Positions 47,307-58,631 of a DNA stretch of 64,000 bases are shown one piece after another. Each line of letters opens with the position of its first letter. Position 1 is the stretch's first letter. This stretch comes from Candidatus Daviesbacteria bacterium (GTDB lineage Bacteria > Patescibacteriota > Microgenomatia > Daviesbacterales > UBA10151), in assembly GCA_016176465.1 (NCBI GenBank), contig JACOXD010000003.1, forward strand, positions 1,824 to 65,823, read 5' to 3'. The notes under the pieces are model-generated. The model saw only the letters and a list, made by a program, of their open reading frames with translations, was not told the DNA's origin and did no database searches. The position numbers and the translations under genes were made by a program.

Positions 47307-47351
47307 GGGTATATATTAGGGTAATAGGTTATAGGTAGCAAGTAATAGATG

Positions 47352-47423
47352 TGGCAGCGACAGGGATCGGACCTGTGACCTAAGCTTTATGAGGGCTCCG
47401 CTCTACCACTGAGCTACGCTGCC
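47352..47423 (-). tRNA. tRNA-Met (anticodon CAU), elongator-type (could instead be Ile2/lysidine)
   Basis: Hand-folded cloverleaf. Acceptor GGCAGCG/CGCUGCC is perfect. D-arm GCUC-AGUGGUA-GAGC. Anticodon loop CUCAUAA. T-loop UCCGAUC is atypical. Confidence 0.65.
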
Positions 47424-47792: not shown

Positions 47793-49739
47793 TTACTTTA
47801 CTCTCAAAGCTGCTTCTTTTGCTTTTAGATAGGCTTCCCAGACTGCATTGACTTTACCTGGATGTACTAACTTGATTTGGTCATTTACCATAATATAATG
47901 ATTCGCTTCTATTAATTTTTTCATTGCTGCGTGAGCCACTACTGGATCAGAGCTTTGTGATTGCTCCACCAACTGATCCAAGTTGTTAATATCTACTGGA
48001 AAATGCGCTCCCTCTGGTAAATGCCCTGCCTCTGCCATCGCTCCCCAATTGTCAATGAAAGTATCTTTATTGGCAAGGATATGTACAGCAAAAGTTTTAG
48101 CATCCTGCGGCCCCCAAGTTATATTATGCCCATGATCTATCAAGATTTGTCCCATGGTATTCCCTTGATGAACTTCTACTATATTGCCCATTTCTGGATG
48201 AGCATCGAAATCTGTAATTTCATTTATCTTGTTCAATATCAAATGCTGTTGGTATAAGTAATCCCTTAAAGCCTCCTTCGCAGTGTCCTGAAGGTGTTGG
48301 GAATAGAATGAGTCTGGAGATTTTAACTTATTTTCTAGGTACTCCTTACCTAAACTTTTTATTTCTTCAAAATTATCAAGATCGGGATTAGATGTATCCT
48401 CAGCTGCCTGTATAAGGTTTGCTCCAGCACTAGCTCTTAACTGCCCATAAGTATCCTGCCAGATTTGAGAGTAAGCTTCATTAGAGATTTGATCTGGAAC
48501 CATTCCTTTGGCTCTAATAGTTTCATCAACTATTTTATTAACTGTCTGAAAATTAGCCCTAGCTAACTCATCTTTTGCCTGAGCAAATTCAGGACTTTTA
48601 ATCATTTCTTTAACTGCTTCTGTTTCCGATGGAGTAAGAGCATCTTTATCTGGGTCAATAAGAGCTCCTGAGGTACCCACATTCTCATCTACTGGAGCAC
48701 CTTGGCCTACTACTTCATGAGGTTCGCTTATACCACTTCCTAACCTGCCTAAACTTTCCCTAACGCTAATTTGAGTTTCAGGAGCAGCGGGCACGGGTTC
48801 TGGAACATTAGGAAATTTAGGTGTTTCAGCCAATTCCCTTATAGGAGTAGTCACTGGAGTTGGTGTACCTTCAATAGTTGGTGTGGTTGGAGGAGTAGCA
48901 CTTTCAGTAGGAACTGGAGTTTCTACAGTAGTCGGAGTACTTTCAGGAGTTGGTGTATTCTCCAAAGCTTCTGCAGTAACAGTATCTGTAGGTTCTGGTG
49001 TGAGAGTAGCTGGCACTGTAGCAGTTGATGTAGCTTCAGGGGAAGGAGTGGCCTCTGGGGTAGGGGTTGCATCAGCAACAGTCTCAGAACTAGACCCTAT
49101 TGAACGAATGCTTCTTAATAAATTTCCTCCACTGTCCATTACATTTTGAAGTACATTACCAGGAGAAGGGAGGGAAACTTTTGGTAGTCTTTCTGCTGCG
49201 ACAGCCAAATTAATTCTAGAGATATACTCACTAATAGGAACACTTAAACCCATCTCAGCACTAATCTCTGGAGCAACAGCTGCAAAAACTCCCTCAATTG
49301 AAACTAAAGCAGCTCCTGCTGAAACTCCCAAAGCAAATTCTTTTAGATGGTGTGCAACTTTAGGATGGCTACTCTCAAGTACGCTTATCTTACTTAACAC
49401 TCCTCTTTCGCTTGCAAATACTGCTCCACTTAAAGCAAGCCTAAGACCAGTTCTTGCCAAAGGACTACCATTAAGCAAAACGCCACTCCCTACTCCAATG
49501 CCATATCCCACTCCCCAGGAATACCTACCTTCAGTAAATACTTTACGGGGAGCATCTAGAGGATTTGCATTTTGGGCCCATTTACCTAAACCTCTAGCAA
49601 AAGCTTTGCCAATACCGGCTGCAGAAATTCCTCTTCTTTCTGCTATAGGATTTTGGGCGGCATTTTCTGCTTCTATTTGGGCTGCAAAATTACCCCAGTC
49701 ATCTGCTCCTGGATTTGGCGCTTCTGCTGTTCTTGCCAT
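47793..49739 (-). CDS. large hypothetical protein with a Thr/Pro-rich low-complexity linker
   Basis: 648 aa. Gly-rich hydrophobic N-terminal region (GVGYGIGVGSGVLL...), a central (TPxPE)n linker, and a C-terminal domain with an HQGNTMGQILIDHGHNITWG motif of unknown function. Confidence 0.5.
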   Translation of the reverse strand: MARTAEAPNPGADDWGNFAAQIEAENAAQNPIAERRGISAAGIGKAFARGLGKWAQNANPLDAPRKVFTEGRYSWGVGYGIGVGSGVLLNGSPLARTGLRLALSGAVFASERGVLSKISVLESSHPKVAHHLKEFALGVSAGAALVSIEGVFAAVAPEISAEMGLSVPISEYISRINLAVAAERLPKVSLPSPGNVLQNVMDSGGNLLRSIRSIGSSSETVADATPTPEATPSPEATSTATVPATLTPEPTDTVTAEALENTPTPESTPTTVETPVPTESATPPTTPTIEGTPTPVTTPIRELAETPKFPNVPEPVPAAPETQISVRESLGRLGSGISEPHEVVGQGAPVDENVGTSGALIDPDKDALTPSETEAVKEMIKSPEFAQAKDELARANFQTVNKIVDETIRAKGMVPDQISNEAYSQIWQDTYGQLRASAGANLIQAAEDTSNPDLDNFEEIKSLGKEYLENKLKSPDSFYSQHLQDTAKEALRDYLYQQHLILNKINEITDFDAHPEMGNIVEVHQGNTMGQILIDHGHNITWGPQDAKTFAVHILANKDTFIDNWGAMAEAGHLPEGAHFPVDINNLDQLVEQSQSSDPVVAHAAMKKLIEANHYIMVNDQIKLVHPGKVNAVWEAYLKAKEAALRVK

Positions 49740-49789: not shown

Positions 49790-52700
49790 ATGGCTATGGC
49801 AAATGAAACCCAACATGAAGGAGAAAGTATTCAACCTCCTGTGTTTACAGAGGTGATGAGTAGTATCGGTGAAAAAATTAGTGCAGGGATTACTGATCAA
49901 AATGCTGCTTCTTTATTAAAAGATGTGTTAAATTTAGATCAAACTTTTCTACCTAATGGCAATAAAGCTACAACCAATGAAAAAGTACTAGCAAGAATAA
50001 GAGAGCCTCTATCTGGAAACCCAAGTGTTTTAAAAGAATTGGGAAAAAGGGGCTCAACAGCTATCTCTCTTGATCAATTGAGGCAAGTTGTTCGTCTTGC
50101 TGAAATTTTAGATATTAAAAATTTAGATGAATATCCCGGATTACTTGCAGCAATTAAAAGAGATATTGCTAGGGAGGAGTCTGCTCAAACTTCTCCTTCC
50201 CAAGCACATAAAGCAGCTATTCCCATTACCCCAGCTGAACCAGTTGTTACTTCTGCTTCTGAATTAAAACTAGAAGAATATTTATTACAAGAACTATTTA
50301 GGGAAGCTGCTCAACAAATAACAGAAAATGGTAGAGCAGAAATTCCTGCAAGTACTAAAATGCTTGGATGGTTAGTAGATGGAGCCTTAACAAGAGCTCT
50401 TGAAGAAAGAAGTATCCAACTTAGAGAACACTATGTTGATGCTTTTATTTTAGATCCTAAAACCCCTGGATTAATAAGATTTCAAACTAATATAGAGATG
50501 CAGAAACCTAATAAAATCATCAATTTAGATTTCGATGCCGTGATATCAGGAGCAAACTTAAGCGCAATATATTTCGTAAGTGATAAGGTAAGACAAGGAG
50601 TGCTTAGTAGAATAGCTAAACCATTTTTTAAAGACAGGTTTACAGAAGAACAGGAAATAAAGGAGATGCTTAGAACTAGGAAAGAAGCAAGAGCAAGTGG
50701 CGAAACTCCTCCCCTTCATAAAATTGTAGAATACTATCTTGCTTATCAATTCCAAAATTTGGGAGTAAAATTTGCTGGTTTGCAACTTAGGTGGGAAGGC
50801 CGACAATTAAAACTAATTTTTCAAGGCTCTGATTTATCTTCTACTATAGATGTCCCTGCTGATAGAGGTTCAACTAGGTTGGGGATCCCAGAAGATGGTT
50901 CTAGGGTTGTATTAGCTGATGCTACATCCCCTGAAGCAATATCTTCTCCTGCAGAAGAGGTTGAAGTGATTCCAGAAAATGTTAGAAAAATTATTGAGGA
51001 TTTAAGGAGTGCATACAAGGCTTATAATGATGCCTACTCCACTCAACCTGGAACGCAAACAGAGGAAGCCCTAGCAGATGTTCGTACCAAAGAAAGAGAG
51101 CTTAGTGAGGCATTAGGTTTAACAGGTGCTGAAAGTTATAAAGAGGTTGAGCTACTAAAAAAACTAGAATTGGAAGCTAAATATAATGATCTAGCATTAA
51201 CAGACACGAATAGAACATCTACATACCCTAATCCTCACTTAATCCTTGAGCTTTTTTCAGGTGCCCCCAATTACCTACGGCAAGCTGCTGCAGATTACTT
51301 CCAACATGCTAAATTGGCCACTCCTGCGGAGCACAGTGCCCAACTTGAGGAAGATTTAATGAAAATAGAAAAACTAACTAAACAGGCTGCAGTTGATATG
51401 GCCAAAAGAGCTGGTAGAGTGATAGGCGATATACTTTCATGGCGTATGTCAGTAGGACCATCATTTGATTATGACCAGGCCTTACGTAGATCAGACACTA
51501 TTCCCGAGCAGATAATAGCACTTTTTAAAGCTAAAAATAAAGCGGAATATAATAAGCTTAAACCAGCAGTAGATTTACAACAAGCAGTGAATGAGTTTAT
51601 TGATAGCTTAGCCAATCGAGCGCTACTTCGATTAGAATCCACCAATTTTCACTACCGGGATTTAATTGATCCATTTGAGAGTCATCAAGGACACGTTATT
51701 AAACTATTTGGTTGGATTAGAGATTCATATGGAGACCTAAAAACATATCCTCCCGAGTCCGATAATTATAATAATATTAAAAAAGGTATTAGAGCAGATG
51801 AGGAACAAATTTTAAATATCCTAGGTGTTACAATGCACCCTGAATATAGACAGCTTCTGTATGCTCATATAGGAGTTTTGCAGAAAATCTCTGAAGATAC
51901 TCCTCAAGAAAAATCTAATAAAGAACTTAATGATAAGTATACAAAAGCCTTAGAAAATTATAAAAAACTTCTTTTATCTGATAGTCCAAATTTTAAGAAT
52001 GTAGCTAGAGCTTTAAAGGTTGCCAGTATGGCCAGGATGAGAATGGAAAACGAGATGATGGAACGGGCTTTAGCTGCTCCAACACTCCGAGATGAATATA
52101 ATAGTGCTGATGGCGCTCGAAGGGCAGTTTTAGAAGATGAGTTAAGTACTCTTCTAGGATTATCCCCTGAAGATAATGGAAGAAGAATACACGAATTATA
52201 TATGCAATATAAATCTACAATTTTTAAAACTTTTGATCTCTCAGCTGAAATACCAATCCCTCCTGATGATTTTACAGGAAGGTTATTTAAGAAAGACACC
52301 GGAACTACAGATGCCTTTTTCAGATATCAATACATCTCAAAGAATATACTAGCTTTGCAAGCACAAGGAATAGAAGTATCGGATGAAGAATTGGCAGAAT
52401 ATCAAAGGGTTTTAGAAGAGCTAATAAATCTTTTTTATTTTGAAGCTGATGTTTCAGGAAGGCCTATATACTACAAACAAGGTGGGGAGTGGGCTGGTCA
52501 AGATTTAGTTGCAGCTATTGAGGGAGGAGAAAGTGAAGAAATGATCAAAACACTCTACATTAGGAGAAACCAGAGTATGATTAGGTTTTATCAGGAATTA
52601 TTAGATCAATCTACCTCCACAAAAATTAATGAGTACTTAAAAAATTTAGCACATGATGCAGGATTAGAATTTAGAACCTCAAGTATCCCTGGCCAACCAG

Positions 52701-53308
52701 CAAAATTAGTGGAGCTCCCTCCTTTGCCACAGCCCATTGTTGTGCCCCCACAAGCTCCAGCAATCGAACCTGCTCCAGCTGAGAGGAGATTGGATATTGA
52801 TATTGTTAATGTCATCAGCCAACTTGGAAAGCTTTATAAGGGTAAATCTGCAAAAACCTTGGAAGAAAGAGAGCAGCTGGAAGATCAAATTGCCAAATCC
52901 TTTGGGTTTGATGCAGACCGCGGATATCGCTCTTTGGTTGAGACCCTCAAATATCTCACGGACTTAATATCTTCTCGGGGATTAAAATTACCTAAGGCAA
53001 ACGAAGATTTAGGAATAATGTTTGTTACAAATAGAGATGAATATCTATCTTTGTTAGAGCAGGTTATACAGAAATTAGAAAAAAATGAGGATATTAAGCA
53101 AGATATACCACTTTTAGTAGGGGCTTTGCGAGATAGAAATTATGCTTTCCTTGCCAGAGAAATCGACAGATATGAACGTGCACTTCCCCCTGAGGAAAGA
53201 GAAAGGCTAATCACTGCTGGCATACTTCCTACACCAGCCGCAGTTTTATCTGAAAGTGGCTTTGTTCTAGGTAATGCCCACTTAGGTGAGCCTCAATCAG
53301 GAGAATAA
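49790..53308 (+). CDS. very large hypothetical protein (1172 aa), predominantly helical
   Basis: Uninterrupted ORF with no TM segments, signal peptide or catalytic motifs. Divergent from the 648-aa gene. Confidence 0.5.
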   Translation: MAMANETQHEGESIQPPVFTEVMSSIGEKISAGITDQNAASLLKDVLNLDQTFLPNGNKATTNEKVLARIREPLSGNPSVLKELGKRGSTAISLDQLRQVVRLAEILDIKNLDEYPGLLAAIKRDIAREESAQTSPSQAHKAAIPITPAEPVVTSASELKLEEYLLQELFREAAQQITENGRAEIPASTKMLGWLVDGALTRALEERSIQLREHYVDAFILDPKTPGLIRFQTNIEMQKPNKIINLDFDAVISGANLSAIYFVSDKVRQGVLSRIAKPFFKDRFTEEQEIKEMLRTRKEARASGETPPLHKIVEYYLAYQFQNLGVKFAGLQLRWEGRQLKLIFQGSDLSSTIDVPADRGSTRLGIPEDGSRVVLADATSPEAISSPAEEVEVIPENVRKIIEDLRSAYKAYNDAYSTQPGTQTEEALADVRTKERELSEALGLTGAESYKEVELLKKLELEAKYNDLALTDTNRTSTYPNPHLILELFSGAPNYLRQAAADYFQHAKLATPAEHSAQLEEDLMKIEKLTKQAAVDMAKRAGRVIGDILSWRMSVGPSFDYDQALRRSDTIPEQIIALFKAKNKAEYNKLKPAVDLQQAVNEFIDSLANRALLRLESTNFHYRDLIDPFESHQGHVIKLFGWIRDSYGDLKTYPPESDNYNNIKKGIRADEEQILNILGVTMHPEYRQLLYAHIGVLQKISEDTPQEKSNKELNDKYTKALENYKKLLLSDSPNFKNVARALKVASMARMRMENEMMERALAAPTLRDEYNSADGARRAVLEDELSTLLGLSPEDNGRRIHELYMQYKSTIFKTFDLSAEIPIPPDDFTGRLFKKDTGTTDAFFRYQYISKNILALQAQGIEVSDEELAEYQRVLEELINLFYFEADVSGRPIYYKQGGEWAGQDLVAAIEGGESEEMIKTLYIRRNQSMIRFYQELLDQSTSTKINEYLKNLAHDAGLEFRTSSIPGQPAKLVELPPLPQPIVVPPQAPAIEPAPAERRLDIDIVNVISQLGKLYKGKSAKTLEEREQLEDQIAKSFGFDADRGYRSLVETLKYLTDLISSRGLKLPKANEDLGIMFVTNRDEYLSLLEQVIQKLEKNEDIKQDIPLLVGALRDRNYAFLAREIDRYERALPPEERERLITAGILPTPAAVLSESGFVLGNAHLGEPQSGE

Positions 53309-53319
53309 TTAATTTTTTG

Positions 53320-53636
53320 TTGCGGGGGTTGGATTCGAACCAACGACCTCGAGATTATGCCTAGATATCTAGTTAGACTATACCTTCACCCCGATGTTAT
53401 ATATCGGGGGCTCGGCGTTTAATGGGAGTTTATATTCCAAAATATTTGGTACCTTCCATATAAGCAAAGCTTGATGCTTCGCATTAAGTCGTTACGGGGT
53501 CCGATGTTACATCGGACTTCCCACGGTATTATCCTTTAACTTAAGATTTCACCGTTATGAGCCGAGTTATCATTAAAGATTACTCTCTAATGAGCCCAAT
53601 TTTGAGCCTCGCGAGCTACCACTGCTCTACCCCGCG
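53320..53636 (-). tRNA. initiator tRNA-fMet (CAU) interrupted by a group I intron (exon 1 = 53605..53636; exon 2 = 53320..53359)
   Basis: Exon 1 CGCGGGG-UA-GAGC-AGUGGUA-GCUC-G-CGAGG-CU and exon 2 CAUAA-UCUCG-AGGUC-GUUGG-UUCGAAU-CCAAC-CCCCGCA-A fold into a cloverleaf. C1·A72 mismatch (initiator hallmark), U8, canonical T-loop. Confidence 0.65.
53360..53604 (-). other. group I self-splicing intron (~245 nt) in the anticodon loop of tRNA-fMet, between positions 33 and 34
   Basis: 5' exon ends in U. The intron starts CAAAAUUGGGCUC, an IGS-like sequence complementary to exon GAGGCU. P7-like pair GACUUAAUG ... GGUAUAGUC. Hairpins UCCGAUGUAACAUCGGA and CCCCGAUAUAUAACAUCGGGG. Terminal hairpin CUAGAUAUCUAG then omega-G. 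No ORF inside. Confidence 0.6.
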
Positions 53637-53675
53637 GTATAAGCTTTGACAGTATACAGGAATAAGGTATTGTTT

Positions 53676-54032
53676 TCAATAGAAGCCAAATAATTTTAGC
53701 CAGCCCTGCCAATTAGATAGTTTAATTTCTTCTTTCCCTTTATTTAAACTCAAAACCTTTTTCACCTCAGATTCGGGAATTATTACTATAACCTCATTTT
53801 CCTTGGCTAAACCAAGCTTATCGCGAGCCTGCTCCTCAATAAAATCTAACCTTTGGGTATCTTTTAATTTTTCCTTTAATAACCTATTTTCCTGCTGCAG
53901 CCTAACTAAGCGCTCAGTAGTAGTATCAAGCCTATCTCCAGCCTGCAATGCTCCTATAATCTGCCTTCCCAGACTGATTATTACTAAGATTATGAGCAAA
54001 GTTATGACAATAATTACTGCTTTTCTAATCAT
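53676..54032 (-). CDS. septum-formation initiator family protein (FtsB/DivIC-like)
   Basis: Single N-terminal TM, a coiled coil (LQQENRLLKEKL), then the FIEEQARDKLGLAKENEVIV motif. Confidence 0.55.
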   Translation of the reverse strand: MIRKAVIIVITLLIILVIISLGRQIIGALQAGDRLDTTTERLVRLQQENRLLKEKLKDTQRLDFIEEQARDKLGLAKENEVIVIIPESEVKKVLSLNKGKEEIKLSNWQGWLKLFGFY

Positions 54033-54063: not shown

Positions 54064-55005
54064 TTGACAATAATATCCTTTTTTAATATTATATGGGATA
54101 ATAGATACATAAGTATGGTTACTCTGCGTGATGCCCATCAACAATTTATTGGCCATTTAAAGGGGCGCTCACGTGCCTCAGCTACTATCTTAGCTTATGG
54201 TAAGGATATTGAGCAACTCGTCTCCTATTTAGTCGAACAAGGCAAACAAAATGCCCAGGATATTATCTTAGAGGATTTGAATGCCTTCATGGCTAAACTC
54301 TCTAAAGAAGGCTATACCGCTAAATCAATCTCCAGGAAGACTAATTCCACAAAAACTTTCTTTAAATTCTTAAAAACTTCTAATTTAATTGAAAATGATC
54401 CAGCCGGCGCACTTGAGCATCCAAAATTTGAGAATAAACCTCCCAGAATTTTATCTAAATTAGAATATCGAGCGCTAAGAGATGCAGCCAGAGGGGATCT
54501 TCGAATTTTTGCCATTATTGAGCTACTTTTGCAAACCGGGATTAGAATTGGAGAACTAGCCCAACTTAGTGTAGATGATTTGGATTTATCCTCTGATTCC
54601 CCCACTCTTCATGTCCCAGAAGGTGAAGGCAGCAATGCCAGAGATATTCCACTTAATAAACCAGCAGTTGAAGCAGTACAAAAGTATTTAGAGGTTAGGC
54701 CTAAAACTCCAAATGATAGAAGCTCATCTTTGACTAAAGCATTATTTGTAACCAAAACAGGAAGGCCCTTACTTGTTAGAAATATAAGAACTGCAATTGA
54801 TAGATACTTTAAGTTAGCAGGGATAAAAGATGCTAAGGTAAATGATTTAAGACATACTTGGGTAGCTCATCATTTAGAGGCTGGCACTTCTTTGACTTTA
54901 ATCTCCAAACTAGCTGGGCATAAAAGAGTTTCTACTACTGAAAGATACCTACAATTTATCCAAAACCGCTCAACTGATAGCAAAGTAAAGCTAGAAGAAC
55001 TCTGA
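54064..55005 (+). CDS. tyrosine-type site-specific recombinase/integrase
   Basis: C-terminal catalytic region LRHTWVAHHLEAGTSLTLISKLAGHKRVSTTERYLQ (R...HxxR...Y), plus an N-terminal SAM-like domain. Confidence 0.8.
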   Translation: MTIISFFNIIWDNRYISMVTLRDAHQQFIGHLKGRSRASATILAYGKDIEQLVSYLVEQGKQNAQDIILEDLNAFMAKLSKEGYTAKSISRKTNSTKTFFKFLKTSNLIENDPAGALEHPKFENKPPRILSKLEYRALRDAARGDLRIFAIIELLLQTGIRIGELAQLSVDDLDLSSDSPTLHVPEGEGSNARDIPLNKPAVEAVQKYLEVRPKTPNDRSSSLTKALFVTKTGRPLLVRNIRTAIDRYFKLAGIKDAKVNDLRHTWVAHHLEAGTSLTLISKLAGHKRVSTTERYLQFIQNRSTDSKVKLEEL

Positions 55006-55157: not shown

Positions 55158-55424
55158 CTAAACTGAATAGACTAATGTTCCTGGTTTGGTGGGCTGTGAA
55201 ACTTTTAGACCAAAGGAGTCACCTTTTTTAACAGAGTCTACCTGTTGATGATCAACTTGTAGTGATTCCACATTTTGATTAAACTCTTCCTCTTCCCCTC
55301 TTTTAAACTTTAGCTTATCTCCCACTTTTAATCCTCCAGAATCTAAATCTATAATTGCTACTCCTAATTTGTCATAGTAGTGGGTAACTTTACCTATTTG
55401 TTTATCCAAATTTCTCACCCCCAA
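55158..55424 (-). CDS. small hypothetical protein (beta-barrel-like)
   Basis: 88-aa ORF lying between the tRNA-fragment repeat and the intact tRNA. Confidence 0.3.
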   Translation of the reverse strand: MGVRNLDKQIGKVTHYYDKLGVAIIDLDSGGLKVGDKLKFKRGEEEEFNQNVESLQVDHQQVDSVKKGDSFGLKVSQPTKPGTLVYSV

Positions 55425-55442
55425 TCAAAATAGAGCCTGTTG

Positions 55443-55516
55443 TGGGCGGACCTGGACTCGAACCAGGAACCGGAAATGTATAAGATTTCTGCGCTAACCA
55501 ATTGCGCCATCCGCCC
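55443..55516 (-). tRNA. tRNA-Ile (anticodon UAU)
   Basis: Clean cloverleaf. Acceptor GGGCGGA/UCCGCCC. D-arm GCGC-AAUUGGUUA-GCGC. Anticodon stem GAAAU/AUUUC with loop CUUAUAC (U33, anticodon UAU, A37). T-loop UUCGAGU. A73. Confidence 0.75.
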
Positions 55517-55525
55517 TACCAGGGG

Positions 55526-56230
55526 CTAATTATACCAAAAGATTTCATCTTTAACTCCATAATAATTTGATACAGCTTTTATAGACATAGCTATTTTCTC
55601 ACTTAAATTAACCCTATGCGTATAAATCTGACATGTACCATACCCAAAGCTTTTATATATTAAACCTTCTCTAGTTGAGTCTTTAATATAAGGTCCTCCA
55701 AATTGATTTTTTGGCAAGTTTAAATGGTTTGACCAGAAATTAGTGACTTCTTCAAAATTCATATCTTTATAAATGTGTAGGCGTACTTTTATGGAGTTTT
55801 TTGGAACACCCAAAACCTTAGTCATCCAATATAGCGCAAACTTAATAACTCTTGGGTCCGTATTACTAATCGAGAATCTTCCATGTTTTTTCTCTCCCTC
55901 ACCCCAATACAAAAATACCCCTGCCAAAAAAAGCTCTTTTTTAGACAAAGGTAATAATTCTTTAACTTGTTTTTCAAAAACCTGCTTCAATCTAAATAAT
56001 CGCTTACTCTTGAACGTTTCAATAAACTTTTCTCTTGATAAATCTCTAGATAACATTTTGTTTTTTAGAAGTTTTACCTGTTGAGTTTTGTTTAAAGGAA
56101 GTCTTTTTAACCAATCACTTAATGTACTTTTGGAAACACCTAATTCTTTTTTAATTTGACCATAGGTTTTTCCTCTTAATCGAAGTTTAATCGCCTGCTC
56201 ACGAAGAAATATTTTAGACATCGTACCCAT
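55526..56230 (-). CDS. HTH-domain protein (possible LAGLIDADG-like C-terminal region)
   Basis: N-terminal HTH (YGQIKKELGVSKSTLSDWLKRL). C-terminal FLAGVFLYWGEGEKKHGRF only loosely resembles the LAGLIDADG core. Confidence 0.45.
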   Translation of the reverse strand: MGTMSKIFLREQAIKLRLRGKTYGQIKKELGVSKSTLSDWLKRLPLNKTQQVKLLKNKMLSRDLSREKFIETFKSKRLFRLKQVFEKQVKELLPLSKKELFLAGVFLYWGEGEKKHGRFSISNTDPRVIKFALYWMTKVLGVPKNSIKVRLHIYKDMNFEEVTNFWSNHLNLPKNQFGGPYIKDSTREGLIYKSFGYGTCQIYTHRVNLSEKIAMSIKAVSNYYGVKDEIFWYN

Positions 56231-56267: not shown

Positions 56268-58631
56268 TTATAGTTTTGCCCTAGATGCTATCTCTGCCTC
56301 TACTGCTCTTTTATCCCTTCCATAAGTTAACCTGGATAACTCTTTAATTGCCCTTCCCACCTCTGGCCTCATCATGGCATACCAAGCTTTCATATCTTTT
56401 TGAACGTTTAGAGAAAAAGGTGGAATTGGCTCTCCATGAACTTGGGTTTTAACATATAAAGTGTGAGCAGCAATATTAACTAAATCTTGTTCATTAAAAA
56501 TGGGTGCAAATTCATGTTGTAAAAAGTTAGCATCTGTTACACCTACCCTATATGCCATGACAGTTCCAACATTTCCAAAGATAGCATTTTTAATATTTTC
56601 ATCAATTTGTCCAATAAACTGGTTAGCTACTATTAAATTTAATTTATACTTTCTGGCTTCAGATAAAATGGAAGCAAAAGTGTCAGTGGCAAAGTTTTGG
56701 AATTCATCTACATAAAGGTAAAAATCCCGCCTTTTGTTCTCAGGTGTATCAGCCCGAGACATTGCTGTTGCTAAAATCCGAGGAACTAAAACTAATCCCA
56801 AAAAGTTAGAGTTATCCTCACCCATTTTTCCCTTGGATAAATTAACTATCAAGATTTTGCCATCATCCATAATTTTTCGTAAATCAAATGAAGGTTTTGA
56901 TTGACCAATTATATTTCTAATCATCATATTGGTAACAAATTTTCCAAACTTGGAAACAAAATAATCAAGCGTTTCAGATTTGTGAAACTCAGTTGTTTGA
57001 GCTATTTGATCTGTCCAGTATCTTCTAACAATAGGATCTGCTACTAAGGGCAAAATCTCTCTAACAAATTGTGGATCAGTTAGTGCCCTAACAACCTCAA
57101 TTAAAGTCCCACCAGGCATGGACATAACTGTTAAAAGCGAGTTTCGAACAGCATGCTCTAAGCGGGGACCAATAATCCCGGTATGGTTTGGATCATAAAG
57201 TTTATAAAGCAAACCAATGATTGATTCCACCACAAAATGTTTTTGCTGTTCGCTTATATGCTCCAGCATATTCATTCCAAAAGGACGCTCAACATCAGAG
57301 GGGTCCCAATAAACTACATCTTTTGCCCGATTTGGTGGAATTAAATTCAAAAGTTCATCTGCAGCATCACCGTGTGGATCAATAAAAGCCAAACCTTTAT
57401 TAGCTAAAACATCTTGCAAAGCAAGTGATAATAAAAACTGTGATTTACCAACGCCGGTTCTTCCAATAATGTACATATGACGCTGGCGATCGGAATCGGA
57501 AATATAAACCGGACGCTGTGTCCCTCTAAAAATAGACTTACCAAGGTATAGTCCAAACATTGGGATTTTCTCTGAAGCTGGAGCATGCCTGGCCGGAAGC
57601 CAGTAGATAAAGGGGGTTTCAATAGATTTATTTGGAAAATGAAAAATGGAGGCAATTTCATCTGATGTTAAAACAGGCAATTTTGAAAACATTGGCTGAT
57701 ACCGATAGATAAAATCAACCATGAATCCTTTTTCCGATCTAATTTTTGCCCCACTAAACCCATTGTAAGCTCCTGAGAATTGCTCAAAGGCTGAGCGTAT
57801 GTTAGATAAATGAGCTTTAGCAGTATCTTTGCTACTTGAGGAAACTACAATCCTTACTGCTACATTAAACCCAGGCTTAGAGAGTTTATTTTCTACAGCT
57901 TCCAGCTGTTTTTGATCAGGAGGAGCTTTAGGTTTATCTCCTGTTCCAGGATCCTTTTCTTTTTTCAAAAATGATTTACCCGAATCTTTCCAGTTACCCT
58001 CTGCTGGAGAGATCATAATTTGAATAGCGGCTCCCTCACCTGGTTGCATTTTGGCTAAGGCGGAGGTAATCGCGGATAAAGGATCAGTTGGTAATTCCCT
58101 ATATGTTTTAATTGGGAAGTAGTTGGTATTTTTTAGTTTTAACATGGCATAAGCTACTTGACCTTCTTCTGAGAAAATATTGTATTCTTGAACTTCCTTT
58201 ACTTCAGCATCAGGATAAGCTCCATTAATTTGTTTTTCGACTAAATCCTGGTGTTTTTTATGGCAAGCGATGTAAAATTTAATTGATTCATTTAAAGCAA
58301 TAATTTCAAAAGATAAATGCGGTTGGGGTTTTAAAAATCCAAATATTCCCCCGCCTGTTTTTATAGAATAAAAAGTAGCGAGAAGTTGCTCTGCGGCATC
58401 AATTTTTATCTCATTTCCCCTGGGAACCGATATTTGAAGTAAAACAAACTCCAAGGAATCTCTTTCTCTATTTTTATACTTAATCCAACCAATAATTAAA
58501 GGAGATAAAAAATATAAAGCTAAAGCTACACCTGCAAAAATAAATAAGAAAATAAAAATAGATCCCAGTAAGGATAAGAAATCTATGTTAGTAGTGGTGG
58601 TTTGACTTGTAACTGCTCCGGTATATTCCAT
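56268..58631 (-). CDS. TraG/VirD4/TraD-like (AAA_10) membrane-associated ATPase, conjugation-coupling-protein-like
   Basis: Two N-terminal TM helices. Walker A IIGRTGVGKSQFL followed by IDPHGD. Walker B-like LYVDEFQNF. About 787 aa. Confidence 0.55.
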   Translation of the reverse strand: MEYTGAVTSQTTTTNIDFLSLLGSIFIFLFIFAGVALALYFLSPLIIGWIKYKNRERDSLEFVLLQISVPRGNEIKIDAAEQLLATFYSIKTGGGIFGFLKPQPHLSFEIIALNESIKFYIACHKKHQDLVEKQINGAYPDAEVKEVQEYNIFSEEGQVAYAMLKLKNTNYFPIKTYRELPTDPLSAITSALAKMQPGEGAAIQIMISPAEGNWKDSGKSFLKKEKDPGTGDKPKAPPDQKQLEAVENKLSKPGFNVAVRIVVSSSSKDTAKAHLSNIRSAFEQFSGAYNGFSGAKIRSEKGFMVDFIYRYQPMFSKLPVLTSDEIASIFHFPNKSIETPFIYWLPARHAPASEKIPMFGLYLGKSIFRGTQRPVYISDSDRQRHMYIIGRTGVGKSQFLLSLALQDVLANKGLAFIDPHGDAADELLNLIPPNRAKDVVYWDPSDVERPFGMNMLEHISEQQKHFVVESIIGLLYKLYDPNHTGIIGPRLEHAVRNSLLTVMSMPGGTLIEVVRALTDPQFVREILPLVADPIVRRYWTDQIAQTTEFHKSETLDYFVSKFGKFVTNMMIRNIIGQSKPSFDLRKIMDDGKILIVNLSKGKMGEDNSNFLGLVLVPRILATAMSRADTPENKRRDFYLYVDEFQNFATDTFASILSEARKYKLNLIVANQFIGQIDENIKNAIFGNVGTVMAYRVGVTDANFLQHEFAPIFNEQDLVNIAAHTLYVKTQVHGEPIPPFSLNVQKDMKAWYAMMRPEVGRAIKELSRLTYGRDKRAVEAEIASRAKL

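What the first reader, a model, noticed from the sequence alone, without database searches (positions are those of the whole stretch)
53320..53636. Initiator tRNA-fMet split by a ~245-nt group I intron between anticodon-loop positions 33 and 34
The two exons fold into a canonical initiator tRNA with the C1·A72 mismatch and a CAU anticodon. Evidence that the intervening 245 nt are a group I intron:
- 5' exon ends in U.
- IGS-like GGGCUC sits near the intron 5' end.
- P7-like GACUUAAUG / GGUAUAGUC.
- Several perfect hairpins.
- A terminal CUAGAUAUCUAG hairpin followed by omega-G.
Group I introns in tRNA-fMet are known from a few cyanobacteria and plastids. One here would be unusual, and if it is the only initiator tRNA gene, splicing would be essential.
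Basis: partly seen in the sequence, partly recalled or inferred. Interest (0 to 1): 0.7.

Follow-up and report, generated by a model that had tools for sequence, protein, structure and literature searches.

The report
Group I intron in initiator tRNA
The initiator-type methionine tRNA gene of this Candidatus Daviesbacteria (Patescibacteria) genome is split in its anticodon loop by a real 245-nt group I intron; it is a further example of a documented kind, and standard annotation tools miss it.

Summary
Confirmed. On the minus strand, 53636-53605 and 53359-53320 are the two halves of a CAU-anticodon tRNA with a C1xA72 mismatch and an A11-U24 pair. They are separated by a 245-nt intron (53604-53360) between positions 33 and 34. 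The 5' exon ends in U and the intron ends in G.

- **Intron model:** Rfam RF00028 matches over its full length at 41.8 bits (whole-window E 3e-7), below the gathering score of 50.
- **tRNA call:** default ARAGORN misses the gene. The joined exons give tRNA-Met(cat), 73 nt.
- **Relatives:** twelve further loci (11 distinct sequences: one GTDB Daviesbacteria genome, the rest metagenome contigs) carry the same split gene. Several share the neighbouring genes at 38-74% protein identity.
- **Covariation:** compensatory changes support the tRNA stems, including the anticodon stem formed across the intron, and intron helices P2, P3, P5, P8, P9 and an arm between P7 and P3'.

Position 33/34 in tRNA-fMet is a classical insertion site, and Met(CAU) 33/34 introns are already published for Microgenomatia (PMC13011429). 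This intron looks IA-like rather than IC3. It is a new member of a known kind, of low to moderate interest.

The parts
53651..53679 (-). Promoter-like site (TTGAAA, 17-nt spacer, TATACT) ending 14 nt upstream of tRNA position 1
   Evidence: 10 of 12 consensus matches. This is a consensus match only. The region had 4 such sites against 3.0 expected from shuffles, so the evidence is weak.
53605..53636 (-). 5' exon of tRNA-fMet: positions 1-33 (acceptor 5' strand, D arm with A11-U24, 5' strand of the anticodon stem, C32, U33)
   Evidence: Nearly identical in all 11 full-length aligned genes. The D arm and acceptor stem pair in all of them.
53360..53604 (-). Group I intron, 245 nt, no ORF
   Evidence: RF00028 at 41.8 bits over model positions 1-253, E 2.5e-9 local and 3e-7 for the window. 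All six reading frames are full of stop codons. Covariation.
53593..53608 (-). P1: exon G30 G31 C32 U33 plus intron C+1 (53608-53604) paired with guide sequence GGGCU (53597-53593); the U33.G wobble marks the 5' splice site
   Evidence: 100% paired in 11 of 11 genes. Two pairs vary on one side only (G-C to G-U, C-G to U-G). RNAalifold recovers it independently.
53571..53592 (-). P2 hairpin (CAUUAGAG / CUUUAAUG)
   Evidence: 8 pairs, 5 with compensatory changes, 90.9% of cells paired.
53561..53566 (-). P3, 5' strand (CUCGGC)
   Evidence: Pairs with 53416-53411. 6 pairs, 3 with compensatory changes, 98.5% paired.
53496..53555 (-). P4-P5-P6 domain: P4 ACGGUG/UACCGU, A-rich J4/5 and J5/4, P5, P6/P6a
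   Evidence: P4 is 100% paired and almost invariant. P5 covaries. The segment folds alone as predicted. AUAACGGUGAA...AAUACCGUGGGAA is shared with published Patescibacteria tRNA-Asn and tRNA-Tyr introns.
53487..53490 (-). P7, 5' strand (GACU), preceded by the invariant J6/7 GUAAC
   Evidence: Pairs with 53379-53376. Invariant and 100% paired in 12 of 12. Matches the RF00028 consensus.
53420..53486 (-). Insertion between P7 and P3' (P7.1/P7.2-like, named by analogy). It holds a hairpin AAGCA/UGCUU (about 53479-53462) found only in some relatives. It also holds an arm with outer stem AUGGAAG/CUCCCAU (53459-53453 with 53428-53422) and inner hairpin CCAAA/UUUGG (53449-53437).
   Evidence: Rfam treats it as an insertion. 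The outer stem has 7 pairs, 4 with compensatory changes; the inner stem has 5 pairs, 3 compensatory. It is absent from the four published Patescibacteria Met, Asn and Tyr introns aligned. Internal-loop bases AGGU.C and AAACU are invariant.
53411..53416 (-). P3, 3' strand (GCCGAG)
   Evidence: helix 3.
53389..53409 (-). P8 hairpin (CCCCGAU / AUCGGGG)
   Evidence: Perfect 7-bp stem. RNAalifold finds P8 with compensatory changes in all 6 predicted pairs; its length varies among relatives.
53376..53388 (-). J8/7 (UGAAGGUAU) and P7 3' strand (AGUC)
   Evidence: Nearly invariant across the family. Matches the RF00028 consensus AAGAUAUAGUC.
53360..53372 (-). P9 hairpin CUAG-AUAU-CUAG and the terminal G (omega-G) at 53360
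   Evidence: G immediately precedes CAUAA in all 12 aligned sequences. P9 covaries.
53320..53359 (-). 3' exon of tRNA-fMet: C34 A35 U36 anticodon, A37 A38, 3' strand of the anticodon stem, variable loop, T arm, acceptor 3' strand, A72, discriminator A73; no CCA encoded
   Evidence: ARAGORN on the joined exons. Anticodon-stem pairs 27-43 and 28-42 covary between the two exons (U-A 8, G-C 2, C-G 1; and G-C 7, C-G 4). The T stem has 3 compensatory pairs.

Best explanation
This is a functional gene for the initiator-type tRNA(CAU) of a Candidatus Daviesbacteria bacterium, interrupted between U33 and C34 by a self-splicing group I intron with an IA-like architecture.

Proposed mechanism, with each step marked:

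1. The gene is transcribed, probably from its own promoter-like site (inferred).
2. In the precursor, exon GGCU plus intron C+1 pair with the guide sequence GGGCU to form P1, with a U33.G wobble (shown by sequence and conservation).
3. The core folds: P3-P8, the P3/P7 pseudoknot, the P4-P6 domain, and a lineage-specific arm between P7 and P3' (shown by covariation).
4. An exogenous guanosine bound in P7 attacks after U33. The terminal G at 53360 then takes its place, and the free 3'-OH of U33 attacks after it. This joins the exons into the loop CU-CAU-AA (inferred from established group I chemistry).
5. End trimming and CCA addition give a 73-nt core tRNA that is charged with methionine and used for initiation (inferred from C1xA72, A11-U24, G30-C40 and discriminator A73).

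The intron has no homing endonuclease gene and sits in conserved gene order, so it is most likely inherited vertically within this lineage.
For: - **Intron model:** full-length RF00028 match at 41.8 bits, E 2.5e-9 and 3e-7 for the whole window.
- **Spliced product:** the joined exons are called tRNA-Met(cat), 73 nt, with 1x72 unpaired.
- **Relatives:** 12 related loci (11 distinct sequences) with the same architecture, L033 from a GTDB Daviesbacteria genome and L121-L131 from metagenomes.
- **tRNA structure:** 95.3% of cells paired, covariation score 0.263 against 0.065 in shuffles (0 of 500 reach it). This includes compensatory changes between the two exons.
- **Intron core with P3/P7 pseudoknot:** 91.9% paired, 14 pairs with compensatory changes against 6.8 expected (0 of 500). 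Sliding the partners drops pairing to 31-48%.
- **Independent fold:** RNAalifold predicts 71 pairs, 34 compensatory, and recovers P1, P2, P3, P4, P5, the arm, P8, P9 and most tRNA stem pairs.
- **Source and context:** the window's proteins are NCBI Candidatus Daviesbacteria entries. DivIC, XerC-like and VirD4-like neighbours are shared with five or six of these loci at 38-74% identity.
- **No coding capacity:** no ORF in the intron.
- **Published precedent:** related Patescibacteria tRNA introns self-splice in vitro, and 33/34 in tRNA-fMet is an established site (PMC13011429).
Against: - The RF00028 score is below Rfam's gathering score (41.8 against 50).
- No expression or splicing data exist for this locus.
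- The anticodon stem lacks two of the three G-C pairs typical of bacterial initiators.
- The window copy has an A.C mismatch in the outer stem of the arm between P7 and P3'.
- The promoter match is a weak consensus hit.
- Subgroup assignment (IA) rests on architecture and motif similarity, not on subgroup covariance models.
Confidence: 0.88

Rival explanations
1. The interrupted tRNA is not the initiator. It would be an elongator tRNA-Met or a tRNA-Ile2 whose C34 is modified to lysidine.
For: - Pairs 29-41 and 31-39 are A-U and G.U instead of G-C.
- PMC13011429 labels the two related Microgenomatia genes simply 'Met (CAU)'.
Against: - Position 1 is unpaired with A72 in all 11 full-length genes (C.A in 10, A.A in 1), and A11-U24 is invariant.
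- au/GC/gu is a documented natural initiator variant that keeps the critical G30-C40 pair (PMC5389676).
- The window and related loci have a separate CAU tRNA with a paired 1-72 (G-C or G.U) and C11-G24, which fits an elongator.
- A tRNA-Ile(UAU) is also present and can read AUA, so a tRNA-Ile2 is less needed.
Confidence: 0.07
2. The intron is a decayed, non-splicing relic and the gene is a pseudogene.
For: - RF00028 is below the gathering score.
- There is one A.C mismatch in the arm.
- No splicing data exist.
Against: - Splice-site nucleotides, P1, P4, P7, J6/7 and J8/7 are invariant or nearly so, and helices keep pairing through compensatory changes. This holds in organisms whose neighbouring proteins are only 38-74% identical.
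- Exon-exon covariation shows selection on the spliced product.
- No other initiator-type tRNA is present in the window.
Confidence: 0.03
3. The splice sites lie elsewhere, as in ARAGORN's intron-mode call of tRNA-Leu(caa) with the intron after position 35.
For: With its intron option, ARAGORN reports tRNA-Leu(caa) i(36,245) on the precursor.
Against: - That reading puts A at -1 and U at the intron's 3' end, which violates the U(-1) and terminal-G rule.
- It takes the anticodon from the first three intron bases. These are CAA in most relatives but CGA in L124 and UAA in L129.
- The 33/34 reading gives CAU in all 12.
- PMC13011429 Table 1 records the same ARAGORN mis-call for a related gene.
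Confidence: 0.01
4. The intron is genuine, but efficient splicing in the cell needs a host protein or chaperone rather than being fully autonomous.
For: - Many IA-type introns in other systems fold slowly or need protein help (general knowledge, not tested here).
- P1 is short (5 bp), and the intron carries a peripheral insertion of unknown role.
Against: [quoted passage not shown] An Asn intron from the same study shares this intron's P4-P6 core.
- The peripheral arm has conserved internal-loop bases, which suggests RNA-RNA tertiary contacts.
Confidence: 0.15

Closest known systems
Met(CAU) 33/34 group I introns of Microgenomatia (GCA_001029755.1, GCA_013426185.1) in Nakagawa et al. 2026, mSystems (PMC13011429)
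   Same: - Same phylum and class-level group.
- Same insertion site (33/34) and same anticodon arm (CGAGGCU|CAUAAUCUCG in one of them).
- Similar guide region (AAAAUGGGCU), J7/3-P3' (CUACACGCCGAGC) and J8/7-P7 (GAUGAAGAUAUAGUCC).
- No homing endonuclease gene.
   Different: - The published introns are 190-216 nt and lack the roughly 45-70-nt arm between P7 and P3'.
- Their P4 differs (AUAUCGGGGAA or AUAUCGGCGAA against AUAACGGUGAA).
- Their host tRNAs have U1-A72 and an aberrant D arm, whereas this one has C1xA72 and a standard D arm.
Classical bacterial tRNA-fMet group I intron at 33/34 (cyanobacteria and other phyla; class 'fMet 33/34' in PMC13011429, found with tFind, bioRxiv 10.1101/2020.01.27.920355)
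   Same: - Same host tRNA type.
- Same insertion point between U33 and C34, with U at -1 and G at the intron's 3' end.
- Same dependence of the mature initiator on splicing.
   Different: - All fMet 33/34 introns outside Patescibacteria visible in Table S5 are labelled IC3 (Bacteroidota, Desulfobacterota, Nitrospirota, Omnitrophota).
- They carry AAGGUGUAGAGACU-type cores and long P2 regions.
- This intron has GUAACGACU / GAAGGUAUAGUC and an arm between P7 and P3', so it is IA-like. The same site is therefore used by a different structural lineage.
Patescibacteria tRNA-Asn and tRNA-Asp group I introns at 35/36, shown to self-splice in vitro (PMC13011429)
   Same: - The P4-P6 core sequence (AUAACGGUGAA...AAUACCGUGGGAA) is shared with a tRNA-Asn and a tRNA-Tyr intron from that study.
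- J8/7-P7 is similar.
- Small size, no ORF, IA-type rather than IC.
   Different: - Different host tRNA and insertion site (35/36 against 33/34).
- No arm between P7 and P3' in the Asn and Tyr introns aligned.
Natural au/GC/gu initiator tRNA variants of some mycoplasmas and alpha-proteobacteria (PMC5389676)
   Same: The first pair is A-U, the middle pair G30-C40 is kept, and the third pair is G.U.
   Different: The phylum differs. Whether Daviesbacteria ribosomes or IF3 have adapted to this variant is unknown.

Membership tests
Group I intron (Rfam RF00028) | Significant full-length match to the covariance model | tested here: met
   41.8 bits over model positions 1-253, E 2.5e-9 on 551 nt and 3e-7 on the whole window.
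Group I intron (Rfam RF00028) | Score at or above Rfam's gathering score (50 bits) | tested here: not met
   41.8 is below 50. Among 11 related loci only L121 (61.6) passes. L129, L126 and L124 score 40-44, and the rest were not reported at E <= 0.001. About 67 nt between P7 and P3' are aligned as an insertion, which probably lowers the score.
Group I intron | U at -1 forming a G.U wobble in P1 with an internal guide sequence | tested here: met
   U33.G pairs in 11 of 11 genes, and P1 is 100% paired.
Group I intron | [quoted passage not shown] | tested here: met
   G precedes CAUAA in 12 of 12 aligned sequences; window position 53360.
Group I intron | Conserved core P3-P8 with a P3/P7 pseudoknot, kept by compensatory changes | tested here: met
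   91.9% paired, 14 compensatory pairs, 0 of 500 shuffles reach this; P3 has 3 compensatory pairs; P4 and P7 are invariant. RNAalifold agrees.
Group I intron | Guanosine-dependent self-splicing | not testable with these tools
   This needs in vitro transcription and a GTP-dependent splicing assay. It has been shown for other tRNA introns of the same phylum (PMC13011429).
Subgroup IA group I introns | Extra helices (P7.1/P7.2) between P7 and P3' | tested here: inconclusive
   A covarying arm, plus an optional hairpin, lies exactly there. J6/7-P7 GUAACGACUACACGCC matches an intron labelled IA3 in PMC13011429 Table S5. Subgroup covariance models could not be run, and the helix names are by analogy from my own knowledge of IA introns.
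Bacterial initiator tRNA (tRNA-fMet) | CAU anticodon in a cloverleaf after splicing | tested here: met
   ARAGORN calls tRNA-Met(cat), 73 nt, on the joined exons.
Bacterial initiator tRNA (tRNA-fMet) | Unpaired position 1x72 | tested here: met
   C1.A72 in the window. Not a standard pair in 11 of 11 full-length genes.
Bacterial initiator tRNA (tRNA-fMet) | A11-U24 pair in the D stem | tested here: met
   A-U in 11 of 11. The other CAU tRNAs nearby have C11-G24.
Bacterial initiator tRNA (tRNA-fMet) | Three consecutive G-C pairs at 29-41, 30-40 and 31-39 | tested here: not met
   A-U, G-C and G.U, invariant in 11 of 11. The functionally critical middle pair G30-C40 is present, and au/GC/gu is a documented natural initiator variant (PMC5389676). 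The feature is therefore typical rather than absolute.
Bacterial initiator tRNA (tRNA-fMet) | Methionylation, formylation and use in the ribosomal P site | not testable with these tools
   This requires biochemistry.
Classical IC3 tRNA-fMet intron | Insertion between positions 33 and 34 of tRNA-fMet | tested here: met
   the site is described in PMC13011429.
Classical IC3 tRNA-fMet intron | IC3-type core with no P7.1/P7.2 and an AAGGUGUAGAGACU-type P7 region | tested here: not met
   This intron has an arm between P7 and P3' and GUAACGACU / GAAGGUAUAGUC. This is a sequence and architecture comparison only.

The most novel reading that the evidence does not exclude
The interrupted gene may be the sole initiator tRNA gene throughout a clade of Daviesbacteria. 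All translation initiation would then depend on a guanosine-requiring ribozyme, and the conserved lineage-specific arm between P7 and P3' could tune splicing to cellular state (GTP, Mg2+ or a factor). That would make the intron an RNA-level control on initiator supply in a genome with few protein regulators.

The sole-copy part alone is fairly likely, about 0.6 by my own estimate, because reduced genomes usually carry one initiator gene; this was not tested beyond the window. The regulatory part is speculative.
Probability: 0.12. Interest if true: 0.6.

Novelty: new member of a known kind. Interest (0 to 1): 0.3.

Why it matters
**Annotation.** Default ARAGORN and Rfam at its gathering score both miss this gene, and ARAGORN's intron mode mis-calls it as tRNA-Leu(CAA). 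Genomes of this lineage may therefore appear to lack an initiator tRNA, which can distort tRNA-complement and completeness estimates. The 12-sequence alignment made here could seed a better model.

**Biology.** This adds a vertically inherited, IA-like lineage to the classical 33/34 site of tRNA-fMet, which is otherwise occupied by IC3 introns. It also extends the au/GC/gu initiator variant to Patescibacteria. If the gene is single-copy, ribozyme splicing is essential for translation initiation in these organisms.

Tried and rejected
- **Genome-collection scan wasted.** The pattern GAAGGTRTAGTC-N{8,38}-GCATAA was too loose. Of the 120 loci returned, 119 were chance or coding matches and only L033 was real.
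- **Viral contigs.** The tighter pattern found nothing.
- **Phage collection.** blastn gave only a 36-nt match to the tRNA 5' half.
- **Source look-up.** An exact look-up of the XerC-like ORF failed, probably because the TTG start I chose differs from the called start. Other look-ups gave only short Logan contigs. The organism was finally identified with the listing of cluster members.
- **Mis-specified structure.** My first structure string used one bracket type for the crossing P3 and P7 helices, which gave false mismatches. It was corrected.
- **Wrong register for the arm.** My first pairing of the helix after P7 (UAAUG with CAUUA) was wrong for the family. RNAalifold showed the conserved outer stem is AUGGAAG/CUCCCAT.
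- **Weak CRISPR-DR40 hit.** The match at 53720-53749 (E 2.8) lies inside the DivIC gene and was dismissed as noise.
- **Alternative splice register.** The Leu-CAA 36/37 reading was considered and rejected.
- **Family covariance model.** None was built, because the alignment (451 columns) exceeds the 400-column limit and only sequences already held could have been searched.
Full report
**1. What is in the sequence**

The feature lies on the minus strand. Reading from 53636 downward, it has three parts.

- **5' exon:** 32 nt, CGCGGGGUAGAGCAGUGGUAGCUCGCGAGGCU (53636-53605).
- **Intron:** 245 nt, starting CAAAAUUGGGCUC and ending CUAGAUAUCUAGG (53604-53360).
- **3' exon:** CAUAAUCUCGAGGUCGUUGGUUCGAAUCCAACCCCCGCAA (53359-53320).

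Default ARAGORN and Rfam at gathering thresholds report only two other tRNAs in the window: Met-CAU at 47351-47423 and Ile-UAU at 55442-55516. With E-value thresholds, Rfam's group I model RF00028 matches 53361-53614 on the minus strand over its whole length (positions 1-253). The score is 41.8 bits, with E 2.5e-9 for the 551-nt stretch and 3e-7 for the whole window. Rfam's gathering score is 50.

The 317-nt precursor folds 5.6 standard deviations better than dinucleotide shuffles, and the acceptor, D and T arms form across the intron. When the exons are joined at U33|C34, ARAGORN calls a 73-nt tRNA-Met(cat) with position 1 unpaired against A72.

**2. Splice sites**

Only the 33/34 junction puts U at -1 and G at the intron's 3' end while giving a 7-nt anticodon loop, CU-CAU-AA. 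The exon bases G30 G31 C32 U33 plus the first intron base pair with GGGCU (53597-53593). This forms a 5-bp P1 in which U33 makes the G.U wobble.

In intron mode ARAGORN calls tRNA-Leu(caa) with the intron three bases further 3'. That reading has A at -1 and U at the intron end. It also takes the anticodon from intron bases that differ among relatives (CGA in L124, UAA in L129). PMC13011429 Table 1 reports the same mis-call for a related gene.

**3. Related sequences**

My first scan of the genome collection used too loose a pattern, and only one of the 120 loci returned was real. That locus is L033, from a Candidatus Daviesbacteria MAG. A tighter pattern that links J8/7-P7, the terminal G, CAUAA and the T arm found 11 metagenome loci, L121-L131. 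It found none in viral contigs.

All of these loci have the same layout: the 5' exon ends ...AGGCU, the guide sequence GGGCUC follows a few bases later, and G precedes CAUAA. L122 and L127 are identical in sequence, so 11 distinct relatives were aligned with the window; one of them (L125) lacks the 5' part.

The window's own proteins are exact matches to NCBI entries named Candidatus Daviesbacteria bacterium (MBI20112xx, locus tags HYS91_, contig 69,688 bp). This organism belongs to the Microgenomates group of Patescibacteria.

The neighbouring genes are shared with several of the related loci:

| Neighbour | Loci with a match | Protein identity |
|---|---|---|
| DivIC | L121, L122, L123, L127, L130, L131 | 38-50% |
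| XerC-like recombinase | L121, L122, L123, L127, L130 | 68-73% |
| VirD4-like ATPase | L121, L122, L130 | 72-74% |
| tRNA-Ile(UAU) | L121, L122, L127, L130 | (RNA gene) |

The interrupted gene is therefore old and vertically inherited in this lineage. The intron has no ORF, so it carries no homing endonuclease gene.

**4. Structure and covariation**

On a 12-sequence MAFFT alignment (A3), the tRNA cloverleaf is 95.3% paired.

- **Anticodon stem.** It forms only after the two exons come together. Two of its pairs show compensatory changes (27-43: U-A 8, G-C 2, C-G 1; 28-42: G-C 7, C-G 4).
- **T stem.** Three pairs show compensatory changes.
- **Overall.** The covariation score is 0.263 against 0.065 in shuffles, with 0 of 500 shuffles reaching it. 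Sliding the partners drops pairing to 37-46%.

For the intron I wrote P1, P2, P3, P4, P6, P7 and the helices after P7, with P7 in a second bracket type because it crosses P3.

- 91.9% of cells pair.
- 14 pairs have changes on both sides, against 6.8 expected, with 0 of 500 shuffles reaching this.
- Slid versions pair at 31-48%.
- P2 has 5 compensatory pairs and P3 has 3. P1, P4 and P7 are invariant or nearly so, which says nothing either way on its own but fits their catalytic roles.

RNAalifold, run without my structure, predicts 71 pairs, 34 of them with compensatory changes. It recovers most tRNA stem pairs, P1, P2, P3, P4, P5, P8 and P9. It also recovers a two-stem arm between P7 and P3', with an outer stem AUGGAAG/CUCCCAU and an inner stem CCAAA/UUUGG. 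It corrected my first register for the outer stem.

The joining segments are invariant across the family: J3/4 AUAA, J4/5 and J5/4 adenines, J6/7 GUAAC, and J8/7 UGAAGGUAU. They match the RF00028 consensus where that model has them.

**5. Which kind of group I intron**

Between P7 (GACU) and P3' (GCCGAG) lie 67 nt that Rfam aligns as an insertion. They consist of an optional hairpin, present in the window, L124, L125 and L130, and the conserved arm described above. The arm's internal-loop bases AGGU.C and AAACU are invariant.

From my own knowledge, extra helices at this place (P7.1/P7.2) are the hallmark of subgroup IA. I could not run subgroup models, so I call the intron IA-like.

I aligned it with four published Patescibacteria introns from PMC13011429.

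- The P4-P6 core AUAACGGUGAA...AAUACCGUGGGAA is shared with tRNA-Asn and tRNA-Tyr introns from that study.
- The guide region, CUACACGCCGAGC and GAUGAAGAUAUAGUCC are shared with the two Microgenomatia Met(CAU) 33/34 introns.
- None of those four has the arm.

The paper states that no Patescibacteria tRNA intron was IC and nearly all were IA. By contrast, the fMet 33/34 introns of other phyla visible in its Table S5 are all labelled IC3. An Elusimicrobiota intron labelled IA3 shares GUAACGACUACACGCC with this family.

**6. Is the tRNA an initiator?**

*For.*
- Position 1 is unpaired with A72 in all 11 full-length genes.
- A11-U24 is invariant and the discriminator is A73.
- The other CAU tRNAs in the window and in related loci have a paired 1-72 (G-C or G.U) and C11-G24.
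- A tRNA-Ile(UAU) is present to read AUA.
- No second copy of either exon exists in the window.

*Against.* The anticodon stem is A29-U41, G30-C40, G31.U39 rather than three G-C pairs. This au/GC/gu pattern is a known natural variant in some mycoplasmas and alpha-proteobacteria. The middle G30-C40 pair is the part shown to be essential in E. coli (PMC5389676).

I therefore accept the initiator assignment with about 0.9 confidence and correct 'canonical' to 'variant'.

**7. Mechanism**

*Shown here.* The anatomy of a group I intron, with P1 wobble, terminal G and a covarying core. Selection on the spliced tRNA, seen as covariation between the two exons.

*Inferred from established group I chemistry.* An exogenous guanosine bound in P7 attacks after U33. 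The terminal G replaces it, and U33's 3'-OH attacks after that G, joining the exons.

*Inferred from context.*
- Transcription from a promoter-like TTGAAA-17-TATACT that ends 14 nt upstream. This is a weak consensus match.
- End processing and CCA addition, since the gene ends GCAACAAAAA without CCA.
- Splicing in vitro has been demonstrated for Asn and Asp introns of the same phylum, not for this one.

**8. Comparison with what is known, and novelty**

[quoted passage not shown] The tFind survey mapped 5,292 of them. PMC13011429 found 333 in 4,934 complete genomes from 18 phyla and names 33/34 in tRNA-fMet among the common, previously described sites. It lists two Met(CAU) 33/34 cases in Microgenomatia.

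This locus is therefore a new member of a known kind. Four things are particular to it.

1. It has an IA-like core with an extra covarying arm at a site classically occupied by IC3 introns.
2. The lineage is vertically inherited in Daviesbacteria-like organisms.
3. Detection fails systematically. Only 1 of 11 related loci passes Rfam's gathering score, and default ARAGORN finds none of them.
4. The anticodon stem is au/GC/gu.

None of these sequences appears in the part of the paper's supplement that is held as text, but that file is truncated.

**9. Verdict**

Interest is 0.3. It is a solid and useful annotation, and a modest extension of a phenomenon described in 2020-2026, not a surprise to specialists.

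Noticed in passing
window 55442-55516 (-); also L121 11978-12052, L122 4670-4744, L127 208-282, L130 1005-1079: A tRNA-Ile with anticodon UAU lies about 1.8 kb from the split tRNA-fMet gene and keeps that neighbourhood in four related loci. Most bacteria read AUA with a lysidine-modified CAU tRNA, so this lineage may lack TilS and tRNA-Ile2.
   Followed up: partly
window 53300-53660 (-): With its intron option, ARAGORN calls the precursor tRNA-Leu(caa) i(36,245), a 3-nt mis-placement of the intron. PMC13011429 Table 1 reports the same error for GCA_013426185.1.
   Followed up: yes
L033, L121-L131: Rfam RF00028 at its gathering score (50) detects only 1 of 11 related introns (L121, 61.6 bits). 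Three score 40-44 bits and seven are not reported at E <= 0.001. Default ARAGORN finds none of these tRNA genes.
   Followed up: yes
L124 1124-1500: This relative carries about 30 extra nt after P1 containing a second copy of the guide/P2 start (GGGCUCAUU ... GGGUUCAUUAG). It looks like a local duplication, and it is unclear which copy serves as the guide sequence.
   Followed up: no
L126 4549-4913; L130 3596-4002; L121 9408-9727: P8 is highly expandable: L126 and L130 have insertions of roughly 70-100 nt there. L121 and L130 share a hairpin of the form UCGAAGUCUACUAGACU(U/C)CGA inside P8, which may be a small mobile or repeated RNA module.
   Followed up: no
window 55158-55424 (-): An 88-aa ORF next to tRNA-Ile(UAU) has a weak hit to EF-Tu domain 2 (PF03144, E 2e-4, below the Pfam cut-off). 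It is 67% identical in L122 and L127, so it appears to be a conserved small protein of unknown role.
   Followed up: no
window 49790-53308 (+) and 47793-49739 (-): Two large ORFs (1172 and 648 aa) flanking the tRNA region have no Pfam match. The 1172-aa ORF ends 12 nt from the tRNA's 3' end, in convergent orientation.
   Followed up: no
window 47351-47423 (-): The other CAU tRNA, elongator-like with G1-C72 and C11-G24, has a C31.A39 mismatch at the bottom of its anticodon stem; Rfam marks two non-standard pairs in that stem.
   Followed up: no
window 54064-55005 (+), 55526-56230 (-), 56268-58631 (-): A XerC-like tyrosine recombinase, an HTH protein and a VirD4/TraG-like coupling ATPase sit beside the tRNA cluster. 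That could suggest an integrated element, but all three have matches next to the split tRNA in several related loci, at 31-34% (HTH) to 68-74% identity. They look like stable chromosomal neighbours.
   Followed up: partly
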